From contig CP070834.1 of assembly GCA_020341755.1 (NCBI GenBank), positions 2,061,144 to 2,105,810 on the forward strand: a DNA stretch of 44,667 nt. The letters run 5' to 3'. Origin of the DNA: a candidate division WOR-3 bacterium. GTDB lineage: Bacteria > Hydrothermota > Tepidihabitantia > SM23-42. The notes below the pieces were generated by a model. That model did not search any database and was not told the DNA's origin. It saw only the letters and a program-made list of their open reading frames with translations. Each line of letters begins with the position of its first letter. Positions within the stretch are counted from its first letter, which is position 1. Positions 2,800 to 6,934 of this stretch are shown here, piece by piece. A program made the translations under genes and the position numbers.

Positions 2800-4350
2800 C
2801 TATTTCAGCAGAAGGATTTTCTCCGTTACGGTTTGCTGTCCGATAGTACATGTCAGGATATACACGCCACCCGGCAGGGGAGAGCCGGTTTCATCATCGC
2901 CATGCCACGTAAAAAGACTAGGGCTAAGGGCATGGGGCATAGGGCAATCAATGGTCTTCACCATACGTCCGGCAAGATCGAAAATAGTCATTTCCAGAAT
3001 CTGGTTGTGCAGAGCGACATTGTGAAATTGAAGGGAGATGGTCGTGGATGTCCTGAATGGATTGGGAAAAGCAGAAATATGAAGCGTGGCCAGGGGAGAG
3101 GTTGCATCGTTTTCTGCAGTGCTGGTCGGGCTCTGGAGAGCAAGCACCGTGGTGCCGGTCCCGCACAGGACGAGAATACCCTCCTGTCCCAGGGCTGGTC
3201 CGCAGACATTGTTCCCGGGTACGGGTATAGTCCATCGCAGGGTGAGATCCGGGTCGAATGAATAGGCATTGCCGCTGCCACCGGTCTGACCGTCGGTCAG
3301 ATATACGATCCCCTGTGCATCAATAGCGCAGCGCGGTTTGAAAAGGGTGCCGGCAGGTATGACCTGAGATGAATCAATTATTATGCCGGTTTCATGGTCA
3401 ATGCGGATGATCCGGTTTGTCGTTGTATAACTGTATACACTGCTATCCGGACCCACTCCGAACGAAGCGAAGGGAACGTAGCCAAGCGGCACACTCCATT
3501 TCCAGACAAGTGCAGTATCGATGTCCATTAATGCGACCAGCGAGTCGGTTATCGGGTTATTCTGCGTTCTGGTAGCATATACTGTTCCGTCAGGACCGAC
3601 GAACGGAGCAACTTGCTGCACGATCCCTCCGCCGATCGGAGGACTGGTATAGAGTTCAGCGCCGGTATCCAGGTCAAATGCCGCGATCACGGGTCCACCA
3701 GCCTTCCAGCCGTACCCCATATTGCCGGATACCGCGATTTCACTGCCGTTCGATGTGGGACTGTAGCGGGTGGTCTTCCACATAGTTGAACCATCACTTG
3801 CATTTATACGCATAACATTCGAGAAATTGCCGACTATCAGGTCACCATTTGCGGCGAATGATACACCTTCTGTTGATCCTTCATCGATCAGGCTGTCGGA
3901 TTGCCAGATTATAGAACCGTCCAGTACGTCAAGGGCATACAGGTAGGATGCATTGGTATTACCGGAACGCGTTACGTAGACTTTGCCGTCCCGGATTGCA
4001 GAAACCCGGTTCCGCCAGTCAGTAGACGGGAAATCGACGGGCAGGTCAGCAGTCCAGAGTGTATCACCGCTATACAGGTTATGGCATACAATATAGGTAC
4101 CGTGCAGGACATCATTCAAATTAAAAATACGAGCCATGACTGCAAAACTATCCTCAATAACAACCTGCTGAGCAATGACGGCAGATAGACCGCCCGACCA
4201 GAGAGTATCTACATATACAGGGCCTGTTTCGCCAGAAAGTCCATTTCTTGCGGGATTTCCTCCGGTACCAACACGCCAGTGATCAGCCAGTACAACCGAT
4301 GAAAGAATTATGATCAGTGAAATTACACGAACAATGCTGAGTTTTTTCAT
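2800..4350 (-). CDS. Secreted PQQ/BamB-like beta-propeller protein with C-terminal T9SS/FlgD-like sorting domain
   Basis: SD AGGAGG before ATG at 4350, signal peptide MKKLSIV...VLA, repeated ALD..G...W blades, C-terminal AFPNPFRTSTTI...IFDLAGRMVK...WHGDD...GGVY. Confidence 0.75.
   Translation of the reverse strand: MKKLSIVRVISLIIILSSVVLADHWRVGTGGNPARNGLSGETGPVYVDTLWSGGLSAVIAQQVVIEDSFAVMARIFNLNDVLHGTYIVCHNLYSGDTLWTADLPVDFPSTDWRNRVSAIRDGKVYVTRSGNTNASYLYALDVLDGSIIWQSDSLIDEGSTEGVSFAANGDLIVGNFSNVMRINASDGSTMWKTTRYSPTSNGSEIAVSGNMGYGWKAGGPVIAAFDLDTGAELYTSPPIGGGIVQQVAPFVGPDGTVYATRTQNNPITDSLVALMDIDTALVWKWSVPLGYVPFASFGVGPDSSVYSYTTTNRIIRIDHETGIIIDSSQVIPAGTLFKPRCAIDAQGIVYLTDGQTGGSGNAYSFDPDLTLRWTIPVPGNNVCGPALGQEGILVLCGTGTTVLALQSPTSTAENDATSPLATLHISAFPNPFRTSTTISLQFHNVALHNQILEMTIFDLAGRMVKTIDCPMPHALSPSLFTWHGDDETGSPLPGGVYILTCTIGQQTVTEKILLLK
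2919..2946. repeat. 7-nt tandem repeat, 4 units (tagggct aagggca tggggca tagggca), inside the coding sequence of the C-terminal domain
   Basis: Read directly; encodes CPMPHALSP on the minus strand. Confidence 0.65.
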
Positions 4351-4568
4351 AGAACCTCCTCTGTTTAGAGTGTAATCGGTTTTCATTCAATGTAAACATC
4401 CATCATCGTCCATCATCGTATGAAAATTGGCCATTTATATATGCCATTTATCAGGGGAGAACCTCTTTATGGTCATCTATGTATATACGATTTCATAATG
4501 TCTATTGAACTACTCGATTGAGACTGTAAGGTTTTAAAAAATGCCATGAAAGGAATCATGAGGGAGAG

Positions 4569-4643
4569 GTGACTGCTAAACTTGTAATCATTACAATTTA
4601 CTTGCTAGTTTACATATTATTTATTATCGGACATAGGAAATAA
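4569..4643 (+). CDS. Possible 24-aa hydrophobic small protein MTAKLVIITIYLLVYILFIIGHRK
   Basis: GTG start preceded by GAGG; candidate promoter TTGAAC-N16-TAAGGT at 4505-4532; could be a chance ORF in AT-rich DNA. Confidence 0.3.
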   Translation: MTAKLVIITIYLLVYILFIIGHRK

Positions 4644-5031
4644 TAGACAAAATCTCCTCAAGCTCGCTAAAATACGACGTTTCCGGCTGTTTTGGTTCTC
4701 TGTCATGGATTTTATCTTGAGCCTGGTATGGTTGAACATACGATCATCTGCCCTGTTTGACTGCTGATCTATTTTATATTGATTGCGTTTGTATAATGAA
4801 TACTCATGAGCTCTTCGGCAAATCGTACCATCTCTTCCTGATGAAAATATGTTTGTATCATTTAGTTGTTTGCTGAGTTATATAATATACCTTACCGTAT
4901 CATGAAGTCTATATGTGATTTATATATTGTTCGTATACGAATGTTTTTCTTCATTCAAGGAGATCTATACAGGATAATGTTTTGCGGTTGGTCATTTTCA
5001 ATATTGTCAGGAGTATTCGAATATTCCATAT

Positions 5032-5064
5032 AAAAAGCACAAACCTCCATGCGGAGGTTTGTGC
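5032..5064 (-). terminator. Intrinsic terminator
   Basis: Perfect 12-bp stem gcacaaacctcc/ggaggtttgtgc, 4-nt loop, followed by TTTTT on the minus strand. Confidence 0.85.
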
Positions 5065-5165
5065 GGTTCAAGAACAGTCTGCATGTTGCAGACAGTTATT
5101 TAGTCTGGACAAGCCAGGCCTGGCTCATAATGCGTATATTGAATATAACGCTTAGCTCCAGACTA
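5032..5165 (-). ncRNA. Candidate structured small RNA or cis-regulatory RNA, family not recognised
   Basis: Promoter directly upstream, perfect 9-bp closing stem (5101-5109/5157-5165) around two hairpins, third hairpin 5073-5097, terminator 5032-5064; no ORF in the track. Confidence 0.65.
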
Positions 5166-5170
5166 TGTAT

Positions 5171-5198
5171 ATTATACTCATTGCATTCGTCAGGTCAA
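5171..5198 (-). promoter_or_regulatory. sigma70-like promoter TTGACC-N16-TATAAT for the candidate ncRNA
   Basis: ggtcaa 5193-5198 and attata 5171-5176 on +. Confidence 0.7.
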
Positions 5199-5302
5199 GT
5201 ACCAATCAACCTTTTATAATATTATTTTTTACTTTAATATTTATATATATATCATTATTTATAAGGATGTTATCGATATTGTATTAAAGTAAAAAGGTAA
5301 TG

Positions 5303-5653
5303 CTATTTGTTGGTGGTTTCAGGGCTTTCATCCTGAATCAGGTCTTTGAACAGTTGTTTTGCCTTTTCCGCCTCTTGTTTAATCACGAGTACTCGTGCTG
5401 GATAGATATGCGAGAATACATATACAGAGTGTTCACCTTTTATAAAATATGGGATTCCAACATCATCAAGAATGGATTTCACCACGGTCAATACGCCGGC
5501 ATCATAGGTGCTCATTATCTCAACAAACTCAGCATCTTTGTTTATTATTTCTTTTTCCGGTTCTTCTTGCAGTCTATTCACGAGATCAACATCACACTCC
5601 GGACAGCGGTAAATGCCGTGCACGTATTCTGATTTACACTGAGGACACCACAT
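5303..5653 (-). CDS. Zinc-ribbon plus DUF2007-like (putative signal-transducing) protein
   Basis: MWCPQCKSEY...CPECDVDL, then VKSILDDVGIPYFIKGE...VLV..EAEKAK. Confidence 0.7.
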   Translation of the reverse strand: MWCPQCKSEYVHGIYRCPECDVDLVNRLQEEPEKEIINKDAEFVEIMSTYDAGVLTVVKSILDDVGIPYFIKGEHSVYVFSHIYPARVLVIKQEAEKAKQLFKDLIQDESPETTNK

Positions 5654-5692
5654 TTGAATTTAGCATGTAGAATGTTGCAGTCTTCGACTGCA

Positions 5693-6934
5693 TTACTTCA
5701 CTCCCTTGAGGAATGCTGGGAAATTGTCTCTGGCTATGAGTTCCTGGACACCGGTGGTCATATTTTTCACCGTATAGATACCCTGTTCTGCTTCATTTTC
5801 ACCGTATACTATGACATATTCTGCTTTTTGTCTGTTCGCATCCTTGAACTGTTTCTTTATATTTTCACAGGGATTACCTATTATGCAGACAAAATTGTGC
5901 TCCAGTATCGTATTTCTCAGCTCCAGACCCTGATTCAGGTACGTCTCCCCCATCACTGCGATGAAAAACCGTTTTGGATCCTGTATGGGAGGGAGTTCAT
6001 CTGGCATGGCAATGAGCAAACGGTCGACACCCATTGCCCATCCGAGCGCAGGTGTATCCTGCCCGCCGAGTTCCTTCATGAGTATATCGTATCTGCCTCC
6101 AGCGAGGATAGTATCCTGGCTGCCAAGGGATCCATGTTTGAACTCAAAGACCGTCCGAGTGTAATAATCAAGGCCCCGTACCAGTTTTTTATTCTCGTGG
6201 AATTCAACATCGAAGACCTTGAGGAAACTTTTTACCTGGTGGTAGTGAGCATTACAATCCTCACAAAGACTGTCGGTTATCTTGGGTGCACTATCATATA
6301 TTTCCTGGCAGCGCGCATTCTTGCAGTCGAAAATGCGCAGGAAATTCTTGTCCAGGCGCCGTTTACAATCCGCACATATGGCATTTTCAAACTCCTCAAG
6401 GTATGCGCGCAGTGTCTTTTTGAAGTCAGCGCGGCATTCTGGACAACCTATCGAGTTCAATTCCACACGGATCTGCCGTGCTTGAAGGAAATCCATGAAT
6501 TTTTTTCCCTGAAAGATCATTTCCGCATCATAAAACGGTGCGCCTTCACCAATGAGCTCGGTTCCAACCTGAATGAATTCGCGGAATCTGCCTTTTTGCG
6601 GTTTTTCCTTCCTGAACATGGCACCGATGTACAATAACCGCGCCGGCAAAGGAACTCTGTTTTCGATGAGCGCTCGCAAGGTCGATGCCGTTCCTTCAGG
6701 ACGCAGCATCAGCGTGCGTTTGTCGATCTCGAACGTATAATTCTCTTTCTCAACGATATCGGTATGCGCGCCTATCGATCTGATGAAAAGGTCGGCATGT
6801 TCGAATGTCGGTGTTCGAATCTCTTCATAGCCATACCGCGCAAAAAAATCACGCGCGCTGCTGCACAGAGATTCTATGCGTTTCAGTTCCTTTCCAAAAA
6901 GATCTCTCGTCCCTTTAGGTTTCTGGTACTTCAT
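5693..6934 (-). CDS. hisS: Histidine--tRNA ligase
   Basis: PKGTRD, LRPEGTA, FRKEKPQKGRFREF, LVRGLDYYTRTVFE, GGRYD. Confidence 0.97.
   Translation of the reverse strand: MKYQKPKGTRDLFGKELKRIESLCSSARDFFARYGYEEIRTPTFEHADLFIRSIGAHTDIVEKENYTFEIDKRTLMLRPEGTASTLRALIENRVPLPARLLYIGAMFRKEKPQKGRFREFIQVGTELIGEGAPFYDAEMIFQGKKFMDFLQARQIRVELNSIGCPECRADFKKTLRAYLEEFENAICADCKRRLDKNFLRIFDCKNARCQEIYDSAPKITDSLCEDCNAHYHQVKSFLKVFDVEFHENKKLVRGLDYYTRTVFEFKHGSLGSQDTILAGGRYDILMKELGGQDTPALGWAMGVDRLLIAMPDELPPIQDPKRFFIAVMGETYLNQGLELRNTILEHNFVCIIGNPCENIKKQFKDANRQKAEYVIVYGENEAEQGIYTVKNMTTGVQELIARDNFPAFLKGVK

What the first reader, a model, noticed from the sequence alone, without database searches (positions are those of the whole stretch)
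5032..5198. Self-contained structured RNA gene candidate in an AT-rich gap
Seen: on the minus strand a TTGACC-N16-TATAAT promoter puts the start near 5165, at the first base of a perfect 9-bp stem (UAGUCUGGA/UCCAGACUA). This stem closes a three-way junction with two hairpins (GCGUUAUA-UUCAA-UAUACGC; AGCCA-GGCC-UGGCU). A third hairpin (AAC-U-GUCUGCA-ACA-UGCAGAC-U-GUU) follows, then a 12-bp terminator and U-tract. Nearly all of the ~135 nt can pair. From memory it does not match tRNA, SRP, 6S, purine, c-di-GMP, c-di-AMP, glmS or hammerhead consensus. Inference: a novel sRNA, or a riboswitch/attenuator. The next confidently called same-strand gene starts ~680 nt past the terminator, which favours a stand-alone RNA.
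Basis: partly seen in the sequence, partly recalled or inferred. Interest (0 to 1): 0.78.

Follow-up and report, generated by a model that had tools for sequence, protein, structure and literature searches.

The report
Small regulatory RNA gene, lineage-specific extension
This is very probably a real stand-alone small regulatory RNA gene of an uncultured WOR-3 (Stahlbacteria-related) bacterium, whose conserved single-stranded stretch matches the start of a tiny lysine-rich protein gene, while the eye-catching three-way junction is an add-on seen only in this genome.

Summary
On the minus strand a TTGACC-16-TATAAT promoter, a three-way junction (3WJ), a third hairpin and a 12-bp terminator with a U-tract sit where described. 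Folding gives z -7.4. No Rfam family matches, and the element is single copy in its 2.38-Mb genome.

Homologues exist only in one sister genus, labelled Candidatus Stahlbacteria. They lie after the same zinc-ribbon/DUF2007 gene but are only about 75 nt long. Three things are conserved: the promoter, the +1 region, and a 3' module made of single-stranded UUCUUGAACCGC plus the terminator. The 3WJ and hairpin 3 are found only here.

The conserved stretch is perfectly complementary to codons 3-8 of a 50-aa lysine-rich ORF. That ORF has a 12/12 promoter and a strong Shine-Dalgarno (SD) sequence. The duplex is 15 bp here and 17 bp in the sister genus, with one compensatory change at its edge.

Best reading: a trans-acting base-pairing sRNA that represses this histone-like small basic protein. 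This resembles chlamydial IhtA/hctA in function, but it is not a member of that family. No expression data could be obtained. Riboswitch and MITE readings are not supported. It is a new member of a known kind, of moderate interest.

The parts
5193..5198 (-). -35 box TTGACC
   Evidence: The homologues have TTGATT at the same 16-nt spacing.
5171..5176 (-). -10 box TATAAT, inside the conserved block TGAGTATAATATACATAG
   Evidence: 11 of 12 matches. An 18-nt exact match to the G002 homologue covers the -10 box and +1.
5032..5164 (-). Predicted sRNA transcript of about 133 nt, from +1 (A5164, inferred from promoter spacing and the conserved CATAG) to the end of the U-tract
   Evidence: No transcript data are available (one search listed no RNA run).
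5101..5165 (-). Three-way junction domain: a 9-bp closing stem, hairpin 1 (5151-5132) and hairpin 2 (5126-5111). It is specific to this genome.
   Evidence: Fold (z -2.85 alone). Absent from all homologues.
5073..5097 (-). Hairpin 3 (AAC-U-GUCUGCA / UGCAGAC-U-GUU), also specific to this genome. Its arms resemble the closing stem (GUCUG[G/C]A).
   Evidence: z -3.37. Absent from homologues.
5063..5074 (-). Conserved seed UUCUUGAACCGC. CUUGAACC (5072-5065) is unpaired in the MFE. The 15-nt stretch 5075-5061 is perfectly complementary to the lysine-rich ORF mRNA at G000:C1:45126-45140.
   Evidence: The 13 columns TTCTTGAACCGCA are invariant in 9 of 9 aligned sequences. The complement is shown.
5032..5064 (-). 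Intrinsic terminator: 12-bp stem (5064-5053 / 5048-5037), loop GCAU, U-tract 5036-5032
   Evidence: The stem is kept in the homologues through changes on both arms. A model built only from the sister genus finds it at E 0.006.
5303..5653 (-). Upstream neighbour: a 116-aa zinc-ribbon + DUF2007 protein. It serves as the synteny anchor for the sRNA.
   Evidence: Pfam DUF2007, E 2.2e-7. Its orthologues precede the sRNA in the sister genus.
5693..6934 (-). hisS (histidyl-tRNA synthetase), further upstream on the same strand. Context only.
   Evidence: Pfam tRNA-synt_His, E 2.9e-40.

Best explanation
Window 5164-5032 (minus strand) is an independent gene for a trans-acting, base-pairing small RNA.

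A near-consensus sigma-70 promoter drives a transcript of about 133 nt with three parts.

1. A 5' structured domain, here a 3WJ plus hairpin 3.
2. A short single-stranded stretch, UUCUUGAACCGC.
3. A Rho-independent terminator.

The single-stranded stretch is the seed. It pairs with nucleotides +9 to +23 (codons 3-8) of the mRNA of a 50-aa, extremely lysine-rich small protein. That gene lies at G000:C1:45118-45270, outside the window. Its protein is histone-H1/Hc-like in composition only.

Pairing this close to the start codon should block 30S binding and so repress translation, possibly also destabilising the mRNA. The duplex is long and perfect (15-17 bp), and no Hfq or ProQ gene was found, so pairing probably needs no chaperone.

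The 3WJ and hairpin 3 are a lineage-specific replacement of the simple 5' hairpin seen in the sister genus. They most likely act as a stabilising 5' structure.

Shown here: anatomy, conservation, complementarity and its conservation. Inferred: transcription, the direction of regulation and the role of the target protein.
For: 1. Gene signals. The promoter scores 11 of 12. The terminator has a 12-bp stem and a U-tract. Folding gives z -7.36.

2. Homology at the syntenic site. In G002 and G022 an 18-nt exact match covers the -10 box and +1. Exact matches of 13 nt and 10 nt cover the seed/terminator region. All are collinear and lie downstream of the orthologous zinc-ribbon/DUF2007 gene.

3. Distribution of the seed-plus-terminator pattern.
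- It occurs in 11 of 49 genomes of the order.
- True sites are in G000 and in 7 of 8 genomes of genus g3. The other 4 hits lie inside coding sequence without a hairpin.
- The stricter pattern gave 7 hits in 185,579 species genomes and 3 hits in metagenome contigs. All are of the g3 type.

4. Shared layout. Every form folds as a 5' stem starting at +1, then unpaired (U)CUUGAACC, then the terminator. TTCTTGAACCGCA is invariant in 9 of 9 sequences.

5. The target site in this genome.
- The 12-mer complement occurs twice in G000: once at the sRNA gene itself and once at codons 4-8 of the lysine-rich ORF.
- That ORF has a 12/12 TTGACA-16-TATAAT promoter, an AAGGAGG Shine-Dalgarno (SD) sequence and its own terminator.

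6. Conservation of the site.
- The orthologous ORF carries GCGGTTCAAGAA in 5 of 8 g3 genomes.
- In the other 3 it carries GCGGTTCAAGGA, which still pairs through G.U.
- In other genera of the family the ORF is present but the site differs.

7. Preference for the cognate partner.
- The G000 sRNA gives -29.0 kcal/mol (15 contiguous bp) with its own mRNA, against -22.2 to -23.5 with g3 mRNAs.
- The g3 type-B sRNA gives -35.1 to -35.4 (17 bp) with g3 type-A/B mRNAs and -31.1 to -32.5 with the three type-C-lineage g3 mRNAs, against -27.1 with the G000 mRNA.
- At the position just 5' of the seed, G000 has sRNA G opposite mRNA C. The g3 genomes have U opposite A. This is one compensatory change.

8. 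Genome-wide scan. Among 12,342 SD-preceded candidate starts in G000 the lysine-rich ORF ranks 3rd, about 5.2 sd below the mean. Rank 1 is the antisense strand of the sRNA gene itself.

9. Independent model. A covariance model built from g3 sequences only gave, as its next hits after the sRNA locus, the antisense of the lysine-rich ORF start. This held in 5 of 5 g3 genomes with the promoter-type sRNA (E 0.016-0.021). Weaker hits of the same kind appeared in 5 more genomes.

10. Co-folding keeps the 5' domain and terminator and forms the intermolecular duplex in 6 of 6 cognate pairs. The net gain is -11 to -20 kcal/mol.

11. Hfq and ProQ were not found in G000, while the control genomes were positive.
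Against: - No transcript evidence exists. No RNA run was listed, and this is a blank, not a test.
- The 15-nt match is not significant on its own. Over the whole sRNA, 0.53 perfect antisense 15-mers are expected genome-wide and 2 loci were seen. The other lies inside a coding region at 309720. The BLAST E-value was 1.25.
- The case therefore rests on the match falling in the conserved seed, at a translation start, and being conserved.
- Effectively only two lineages (g1 and g3) carry the sRNA, so there is one compensatory event, not many.
- Part of the mRNA site is constrained by the conserved N-terminus MPK(C/S)GSR. Its conservation is therefore not purely due to RNA pairing.
- The g3-trained model did not list the lysine-rich site in G000 itself. 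Its 3 hits there were the sRNA, the accD start and one other.
- One spurious-looking TTG ORF scored slightly better than the lysine-rich ORF in the scan.
- In G000, 3 nt of the duplex lie in the base of hairpin 3 and 4 nt in the base of the terminator. Only about 8 nt are free.
- The lysine-rich ORF has no family assignment.
- The genome is 90% complete and holds 22,900 masked N. The absence of Hfq is therefore soft.
Confidence: 0.6

Rival explanations
1. It is a real sRNA gene, but the lysine-rich ORF match is coincidental. The RNA would act on other mRNAs, or through its structured 5' domain as a protein-binding or sponge RNA.
For: - The gene signals and conservation are as in the best explanation.
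- The 15-mer match is not significant genome-wide.
- A 10-nt seed complement also lies at the accD start.
- The G000-specific 100-nt domain is more structured than chance (z -4.3).
Against: - The same orthologous mRNA start carries the complement in both genera.
- Cognate pairs are stronger than cross-genus pairs, and there is one compensatory change.
- The conserved part of the RNA is exactly the complementary part.
- The 5' domain is not conserved at all.
Confidence: 0.17
2. It is mainly the terminator/3' UTR of the hisS-DUF2007 transcription unit. The promoter-like site would be unused and the element would have no trans function of its own. Alternatively, any sRNA would arise only by processing of the read-through transcript.
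For: - No terminator-like site lies between the DUF2007 stop (5303) and the element, so read-through would end at this terminator.
- In G012 and G024 the same seed-plus-terminator module sits directly after the stop codon of a CMD-family gene. No promoter was found in the 250 nt before it.
Against: - Ordinary terminators do not keep an invariant 13-nt single-stranded stretch in front of them across genera.
- The -35, spacer length, -10 and +1 region are conserved in G000 and in all 7 distinct promoter-type homologues.
- The 3'-UTR version in G012/G024 keeps a hairpin-seed-terminator layout. That fits a 3'-UTR-derived sRNA rather than a plain terminator.
Confidence: 0.13
3. It is a cis-acting leader. 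The 3WJ would be a ligand-binding aptamer and the terminator its expression platform, controlling the downstream beta-propeller gene (2800-4386).
For: - The layout of a 3WJ closed by a long stem, followed by a terminator, recalls riboswitches.
- The next gene is on the same strand.
Against: - No Rfam hit, even at E up to 10.
- The 3WJ is absent from all homologues, whereas the promoter and terminator are kept.
- About 650 nt of AT-rich DNA, without an ORF of 60 aa or more, separates the terminator from the gene.
- Homologues in the sister genus have no shared same-strand downstream gene.
- No alternative antiterminator pairing appears in the MFE or centroid structures. This was by inspection only, not an exhaustive test.
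Confidence: 0.05
4. It is a repeat, MITE or mobile-element remnant, or a small protein-coding gene.
For: - The closing stem looks like terminal inverted repeats, and hairpin 3 has similar arms.
- A 38-aa TTG ORF (4955-5071, minus strand) starts in the seed.
Against: - Single copy in the genome.
- No match in phage, plasmid or viral-contig collections.
- The TTG ORF has no SD, runs through the terminator, and is shifted out of frame by the 2-nt CA difference in the homologues.
Confidence: 0.02

Closest known systems
IhtA sRNA and its target hctA (histone-like Hc1) in Chlamydia. I read the abstract and outline of PMC4355289 and the search-listing abstract starts of PMC3469542 and PMC8343073.
   Same: A short trans-encoded sRNA with several stem-loops represses translation of a small, highly basic, lysine-rich DNA-condensing protein. 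It does so by pairing at the very start of the ORF. A second small basic protein is also an IhtA target.
   Different: - No sequence or Rfam similarity.
- Per that abstract, IhtA uses a 6-7-nt G/C-rich hairpin-loop contact over the AUG.
- Here a linear single-stranded seed next to the terminator gives 15-17 contiguous bp at codons 3-8.
- The target shows no detectable homology to HctA. The only lead is a chance-level atlas hit to clusters with Pfam HC2 (score 0.76).
- The phylum is different and nothing has been tested experimentally.
Classical seed-plus-terminator base-pairing sRNAs of Proteobacteria, and 3'-UTR-derived sRNAs (for example RybB, MicC, CpxQ, SroC).
   Same: - Own promoter, structured body, short conserved single-stranded seed and Rho-independent terminator.
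- Pairing within the first codons of the target, the 'five-codon window' (recalled).
- One lineage (G012/G024) carries the module as a 3' UTR of a CMD-family gene.
   Different: - No Hfq or ProQ gene found.
- Much longer perfect duplex.
- Unrelated sequence.
- A 5' domain that was swapped between genera.
Three-way-junction riboswitch aptamers followed by terminator expression platforms
   Same: A 3WJ closed by a long helix and followed by an intrinsic terminator.
   Different: - The junction is not conserved in homologues.
- No regulated downstream ORF.
- No Rfam match.
- No evident antiterminator.
Trans-encoded type I antitoxin RNAs
   Same: A small RNA with extended perfect complementarity to the start of a very small ORF encoded elsewhere.
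   Different: The small ORF is extremely basic and hydrophilic (66% K+R), not a hydrophobic membrane peptide. It is a conserved, syntenic chromosomal gene across a family, not a mobile cassette.

Membership tests
Any Rfam 15 family | Covariance-model score at or above the family's gathering threshold | tested here: not met
   - 0 matches in the whole window.
- Locally only Phe_leader at 17.8 bits (threshold 55) and CssrB at 12.5 bits (threshold 76), both on the terminator hairpin.
- 0 matches at E up to 1 in three homologue loci and the target locus.
Trans-acting base-pairing sRNA (a kind, not a sequence family) | Own promoter and intrinsic terminator delimiting a short non-coding transcript | tested here: met
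   - 11 of 12 promoter matches and a 12-bp terminator.
- Both are conserved in the sister genus.
- No conserved ORF.
Trans-acting base-pairing sRNA (a kind, not a sequence family) | Conserved, accessible seed | tested here: met
   13 invariant columns in 9 of 9 sequences. The core is unpaired in the MFE structure of 8 of 8 transcripts folded.
Trans-acting base-pairing sRNA (a kind, not a sequence family) | Complementary site in a target mRNA's translation-initiation region, conserved with the sRNA | tested here: met
   Computational only, and effectively two lineages.
Trans-acting base-pairing sRNA (a kind, not a sequence family) | Detectable discrete transcript | not testable with these tools
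   No RNA run was listed for this stretch.
IhtA (chlamydial sRNA family) | Sequence/structure homology to IhtA, and an hctA-type target | tested here: not met
   - No Rfam family matched. I did not verify that IhtA is among the 4227 models.
- The target has no Pfam or NCBIfam hit.
- The resemblance is functional only.
Riboswitch | Aptamer conserved across homologues | tested here: not met
   The 3WJ is absent from all 10 homologous sequences.
Riboswitch | Regulated downstream gene in cis, shared among homologues | tested here: not met
   There is a 650-nt gap here. No shared same-strand downstream gene exists in 6 homologue loci.
MITE / dispersed repeat | Multiple copies in the genome | tested here: not met
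   Only the locus itself matches over more than 28 nt in G000. Nothing in phages, plasmids or viral contigs.
tRNA / tmRNA-like | Recognised by ARAGORN | tested here: not met
   0 genes in the window.

The most novel reading that the evidence does not exclude
WOR-3/Stahlbacteria-related bacteria may run a counterpart of the chlamydial IhtA-HctA switch that arose independently. A highly expressed sRNA would gate translation of a histone-H1-like, lysine-rich nucleoid protein. This would hint at regulated chromosome compaction in an uncultured free-living lineage.

In this genome the sRNA has in addition acquired a 100-nt three-way-junction domain. That domain could be a sensor or protein-binding module controlling access to the seed. 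If so, this would be an example of modular sRNA evolution: a fixed seed and terminator with an exchangeable 5' domain.
Probability: 0.25. Interest if true: 0.65.

Novelty: new member of a known kind. Interest (0 to 1): 0.42.

Why it matters
No regulatory RNA appears in the held literature for WOR-3. A search for 'WOR-3' with 'sRNA' returned 0 papers. A search for 'Stahlbacteria' returned 9 papers, of which 8 were listed, and none is about RNAs by title.

The analysis yields a testable sRNA-target pair obtained purely by comparative genomics. It also points to an unannotated 50-aa lysine-rich gene with perfect expression signals, conserved across a family.

It further shows how an sRNA can keep its seed and terminator while swapping its whole 5' domain, or move into a 3' UTR.

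For the scan, the lesson is that the most conspicuous structure, the 3WJ, is not the conserved part.

Tried and rejected
- BLAST of the 173-nt locus against 40 relatives gave only short hits at E of about 0.008 or worse. Homologues were found only through synteny and then by pattern.
- nhmmer with the single sequence found nothing but itself.
- I looked for cognate sRNAs in other genera of the family. The g3-trained model gave no convincing sRNA hit outside g1 and g3.
- Antisense searches used the lysine-rich ORF start of G001 (searched in G001 and G011), G003 and G007. They gave only chance-level hits. The best was a 15-nt match in G001 inside the C-terminal coding region of an outer-membrane-like protein. 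The result is 'not found with these queries', not 'absent'.
- Expression: no RNA holder was listed.
- Family assignment of the lysine-rich ORF failed.
  - Pfam gave nothing.
  - NCBIfam gave nothing.
  - The word-based homology search gave nothing (low-complexity query).
  - The protein atlas gave only unnamed clusters at 0.84 and a chance-level HC2 lead at 0.76.
- Mobile-element origin of the 3WJ: no match in phages, plasmids or viral contigs.
- A 16-nt match of the terminator region at G000:309720 lies inside a coding sequence and was dismissed as chance.
- The idea that CUUGAACC targets tRNA T-loops (GGUUCAAG-like) came from memory and was dropped. The flanks do not fit a T-arm, and a better-supported mRNA target emerged.
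- Alignment A3 mixed in the reverse-strand palindromic hits, so I did not run the count of structure pairs on it. Statements on terminator covariation come from reading.
Recounting one search gives 18 of 30: 18 of 20 loci of family f1 and 0 of 10 loci of family f2.
- Supplementary files of papers were not consulted.
Full report
**Observation**

- -35 box TTGACC at 5198-5193, a 16-nt spacer, and -10 box TATAAT at 5176-5171.
- A 9-bp stem, 5165-5157 with 5109-5101, closing a three-way junction (3WJ).
- Hairpin 1 at 5151-5132 and hairpin 2 at 5126-5111.
- A third hairpin at 5097-5073.
- A 12-bp terminator at 5064-5037, followed by TTTTT.

The promoter scores 11 of 12 and is the best of 15 promoter-like sites in 4300-5700. 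The 139-nt RNA folds exactly as drawn. It gives -57.4 kcal/mol and z -7.36, with 0 of 200 shuffles as good.

Much of that signal comes from the terminator. The 3WJ alone gives z -2.85 (4 of 200 shuffles as good). The 100-nt 5' domain gives z -4.32. The plus strand folds nearly as well (z -6.0). Orientation therefore rests on the promoter, the U-tract and conservation.

**Not a known family and not a repeat**

- Rfam 15 gave 0 matches at gathering thresholds over the whole window.
- Locally it gave only two sub-threshold hits on the terminator hairpin.
- ARAGORN found no tRNA or tmRNA.
- The element is single copy in its genome, a 2.38-Mb single contig that is 90% complete.
- It has no match in the phage, plasmid or viral-contig collections.

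**Context**

Upstream on the same strand lie hisS (5693-6934) and a 116-aa zinc-ribbon/DUF2007 protein (5303-5653). Downstream, about 650 nt of AT-rich DNA holds no ORF of 60 aa or more. It precedes a BamB/PQQ-like beta-propeller gene with a T9SS-type C-terminal tail (2800-4386).

**Homologues**

Plain BLAST against 40 relatives gave nothing convincing. I therefore fetched the orthologues of the DUF2007 gene and read their downstream DNA.

In G002 and G022, of sister genus g3, three collinear exact matches appear within about 90 nt. An 18-nt match covers the -10 box and +1 (TGAGTATAATATACATAG). Matches of 13 nt and 10 nt cover the region before and after the terminator stem.

A pattern for this 3' module hit 11 of 49 genomes of the order, and the reversed-pattern control gave 0. 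The true sites are G000 and 7 of 8 g3 genomes. The other 4 hits lie in coding sequence without a hairpin. The eighth g3 genome is 88% complete.

A stricter pattern found 7 loci among 185,579 species genomes and 3 metagenome contigs. All are of the g3 type. Three record titles read 'Candidatus Stahlbacteria'. The organism is thus a relative of the WOR-3/Stahlbacteria group.

**What is and is not conserved**

The g3 RNAs are only about 75 nt long. They have a small 5' hairpin starting at +1, an unpaired U/C-rich stretch ending in UUCUUGAACCGC, and the terminator.

Conserved between the genera are the -35 box with its 16-nt spacing, the -10 box, the +1 region, 13 invariant nucleotides (TTCTTGAACCGCA, 9 of 9 sequences), and the terminator. 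The terminator stem keeps pairing through changes on both arms.

The 3WJ and hairpin 3, about 90 nt, occur in none of the homologues. A covariance model built from g3 sequences alone recovers the G000 locus (29.7 bits, E 0.006 per genome).

In G012 and G024 the same hairpin-seed-terminator module follows directly on the stop codon of a CMD-family gene. No promoter lies in the preceding 250 nt. This is a 3'-UTR version.

**Target**

The complement of the seed, GCGGTTCAAGAA, occurs twice in G000. One site is the sRNA gene itself. The other is at 45128, at codons 4-8 of a 50-aa ORF, MPKCGSRTKKKPKKKK..., which is 66% K+R. The perfect duplex is 15 bp (G000:C1:45126-45140).

This ORF is a self-contained unit. 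It has a 12/12 TTGACA-16-TATAAT promoter, an AAGGAGG Shine-Dalgarno (SD) sequence and its own terminator. It lies between an NfeD-like gene and a weakly HepT-like gene.

Using the HepT-like neighbour as anchor, I examined 30 of the 47 genomes that matched it. I found the lysine-rich ORF in 18 of 30 loci: 18 of 20 loci of family f1 and 0 of 10 loci of family f2.
- All 8 g3 genomes carry the site at the same codons.
- Five of them have GCGGTTCAAGAA, and three have GCGGTTCAAGGA, which still pairs through G.U.
- In the other genera the site differs.

**Support for a real interaction**

- *Cognate preference.* The G000 sRNA binds its own mRNA at -29.0 kcal/mol, against -22.2 to -23.5 for g3 mRNAs. 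The g3 type-B sRNA gives -35.1 to -35.4 (17 contiguous bp) with g3 type-A/B mRNAs. It gives -31.1 to -32.5 with the mRNAs of G012, G024 and G020, and -27.1 with the G000 mRNA.
- *Compensatory change.* At the position just 5' of the shared seed, G000 has sRNA G opposite mRNA C. The g3 genomes have U opposite A. At the other end, G000's extra GCAC pairs with its own GUGC.
- *Genome-wide scan.* Among 12,342 SD-preceded starts in G000 the lysine-rich ORF ranks 3rd, about 5.2 sd below the mean. Rank 1 is the antisense of the sRNA gene itself, and rank 2 is a TTG ORF with G.U pairs.
- *Independent model.* After the sRNA locus, the g3-trained model's next hits are the antisense of the lysine-rich ORF start. 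This holds in 5 of 5 g3 genomes with the promoter-type sRNA (E 0.016-0.021). Weaker hits of the same kind occur in G001, G007, G024, G012 and G020.
- *Co-folding.* The duplex forms in 6 of 6 cognate pairs while the 5' domain and terminator stay folded. The net gain is -11 to -20 kcal/mol.

**Caveats**

- A perfect 15-mer somewhere in the genome is not surprising. About 0.53 are expected over the whole RNA and 2 loci were seen. The other lies inside a coding sequence.
- Only two lineages carry the sRNA, so the covariation is a single event.
- The protein N-terminus constrains part of the site.
- The g3 model did not list the lysine-rich site in G000 itself.
- Only about 8 nt of the G000 seed are free in the MFE structure.
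- No expression data could be had.

**Mechanism**

The most likely mechanism is a trans-acting antisense sRNA that pairs at +9 to +23 of the lysine-rich mRNA. This lies inside the ribosome footprint, the 'five-codon window' (recalled, not checked). Pairing there would block initiation.

No Hfq or ProQ gene was found, although the control genomes were positive. The genome is 90% complete and holds 22,900 masked N. A long perfect duplex fits chaperone-free pairing.

The G000-specific 3WJ and hairpin 3 take the place of the simple 5' hairpin of the sister genus. Their arms share GUCUG(G/C)A, which suggests internal duplication. They most likely stabilise the 5' end. A sensor or protein-binding role cannot be excluded.

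**Rivals**

- *Cis leader or riboswitch.* Not supported. The junction is not conserved, there is no shared downstream gene, the gap is 650 nt, and Rfam gives no hit.
- *Plain operon terminator.* It does not explain the invariant single-stranded 13-mer or the conserved promoter. Read-through from DUF2007 probably also ends here.
- *Repeat/MITE and coding readings.* These fail on copy number and on frame conservation.

**Comparison**

The closest functional analogue is chlamydial IhtA. It represses the small basic histone-like HctA, and a second small basic protein, by pairing at the start of the ORF. For this I read the abstract of PMC4355289 and the search listings.

There is no homology, the mode of contact differs, and the target has no family assignment. 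By architecture this is an ordinary seed-plus-terminator sRNA.

Literature searches found nothing on sRNAs in this phylum. 'WOR-3' with 'sRNA' gave 0 papers, and 'DUF2007' with 'RNA motif' gave 0. 'Stahlbacteria' gave 9 papers, of which 8 were listed, and none is on RNAs by title.

**Verdict**

- It is a new member of a known kind.
- The striking 3WJ is a lineage-specific appendage.
- The added value is a conserved, testable sRNA-target pair in an uncultured phylum.
- Interest is 0.42.

Noticed in passing
outside the window: G000:C1:45118-45270 (+), locus L082 1491-1643: Unannotatable 50-aa ORF with 66% Lys+Arg. It has a perfect 12/12 sigma-70 promoter, an AAGGAGG Shine-Dalgarno (SD) sequence and its own terminator. 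It is conserved and syntenic in 18 of 20 loci examined in the family, with a variable number of KKKK(V/T)T repeats. No Pfam or NCBIfam hit.
   Followed up: yes
L062 1473-1544 (G024) and L066 152-204 (G012): The seed-plus-terminator module sits directly after the stop codon of a CMD-family (carboxymuconolactone decarboxylase) gene. A 10-bp hairpin spans the stop codon, and no promoter lies upstream. This is an apparent 3'-UTR-borne version of the sRNA.
   Followed up: partly
window 4387-5031: About 650 nt of AT-rich DNA (GC about 0.39 in 4001-5000) lies between the terminator and the beta-propeller gene. It has no ORF of 60 aa or more and no Rfam hit. Its content is unexplained.
   Followed up: partly
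outside the window: G000:C1:1479665 (+), locus L167 1527-2369: The accD-like gene (MWFKKKVKARPEEK...) starts 7 nt after a TTGACA-17-TAGAAT promoter-like site read by eye, so it may be leaderless. It carries a 10-nt complement of the sRNA seed at codons 2-5. It could be a weak second target or chance.
   Followed up: partly
window 5157-5165 / 5101-5109 and 5087-5093 / 5077-5083: The arms of the closing stem and of hairpin 3 share the motif GUCUG(G/C)A / U(C/G)CAGAC. This suggests the genome-specific 5' domain grew by internal duplication.
   Followed up: no
window 2800-4386 (-): A 528-aa BamB/PQQ-like beta-propeller protein with weak, sub-threshold matches to a T9SS-type C-terminal sorting domain and FlgD-Ig. 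It is probably a secreted or surface protein.
   Followed up: no
G001:C14:243489-243517 (locus L173): A 15-nt perfect antisense match to G001's own lysine-rich ORF start lies inside the C-terminal coding region of an outer-membrane-like protein (...[15 protein letters not shown]). It was judged to be chance.
   Followed up: partly
whole genome G000: No Hfq and no ProQ/FinO gene was detected, while the control genomes were positive. The assembly holds 22,900 masked N.
   Followed up: partly
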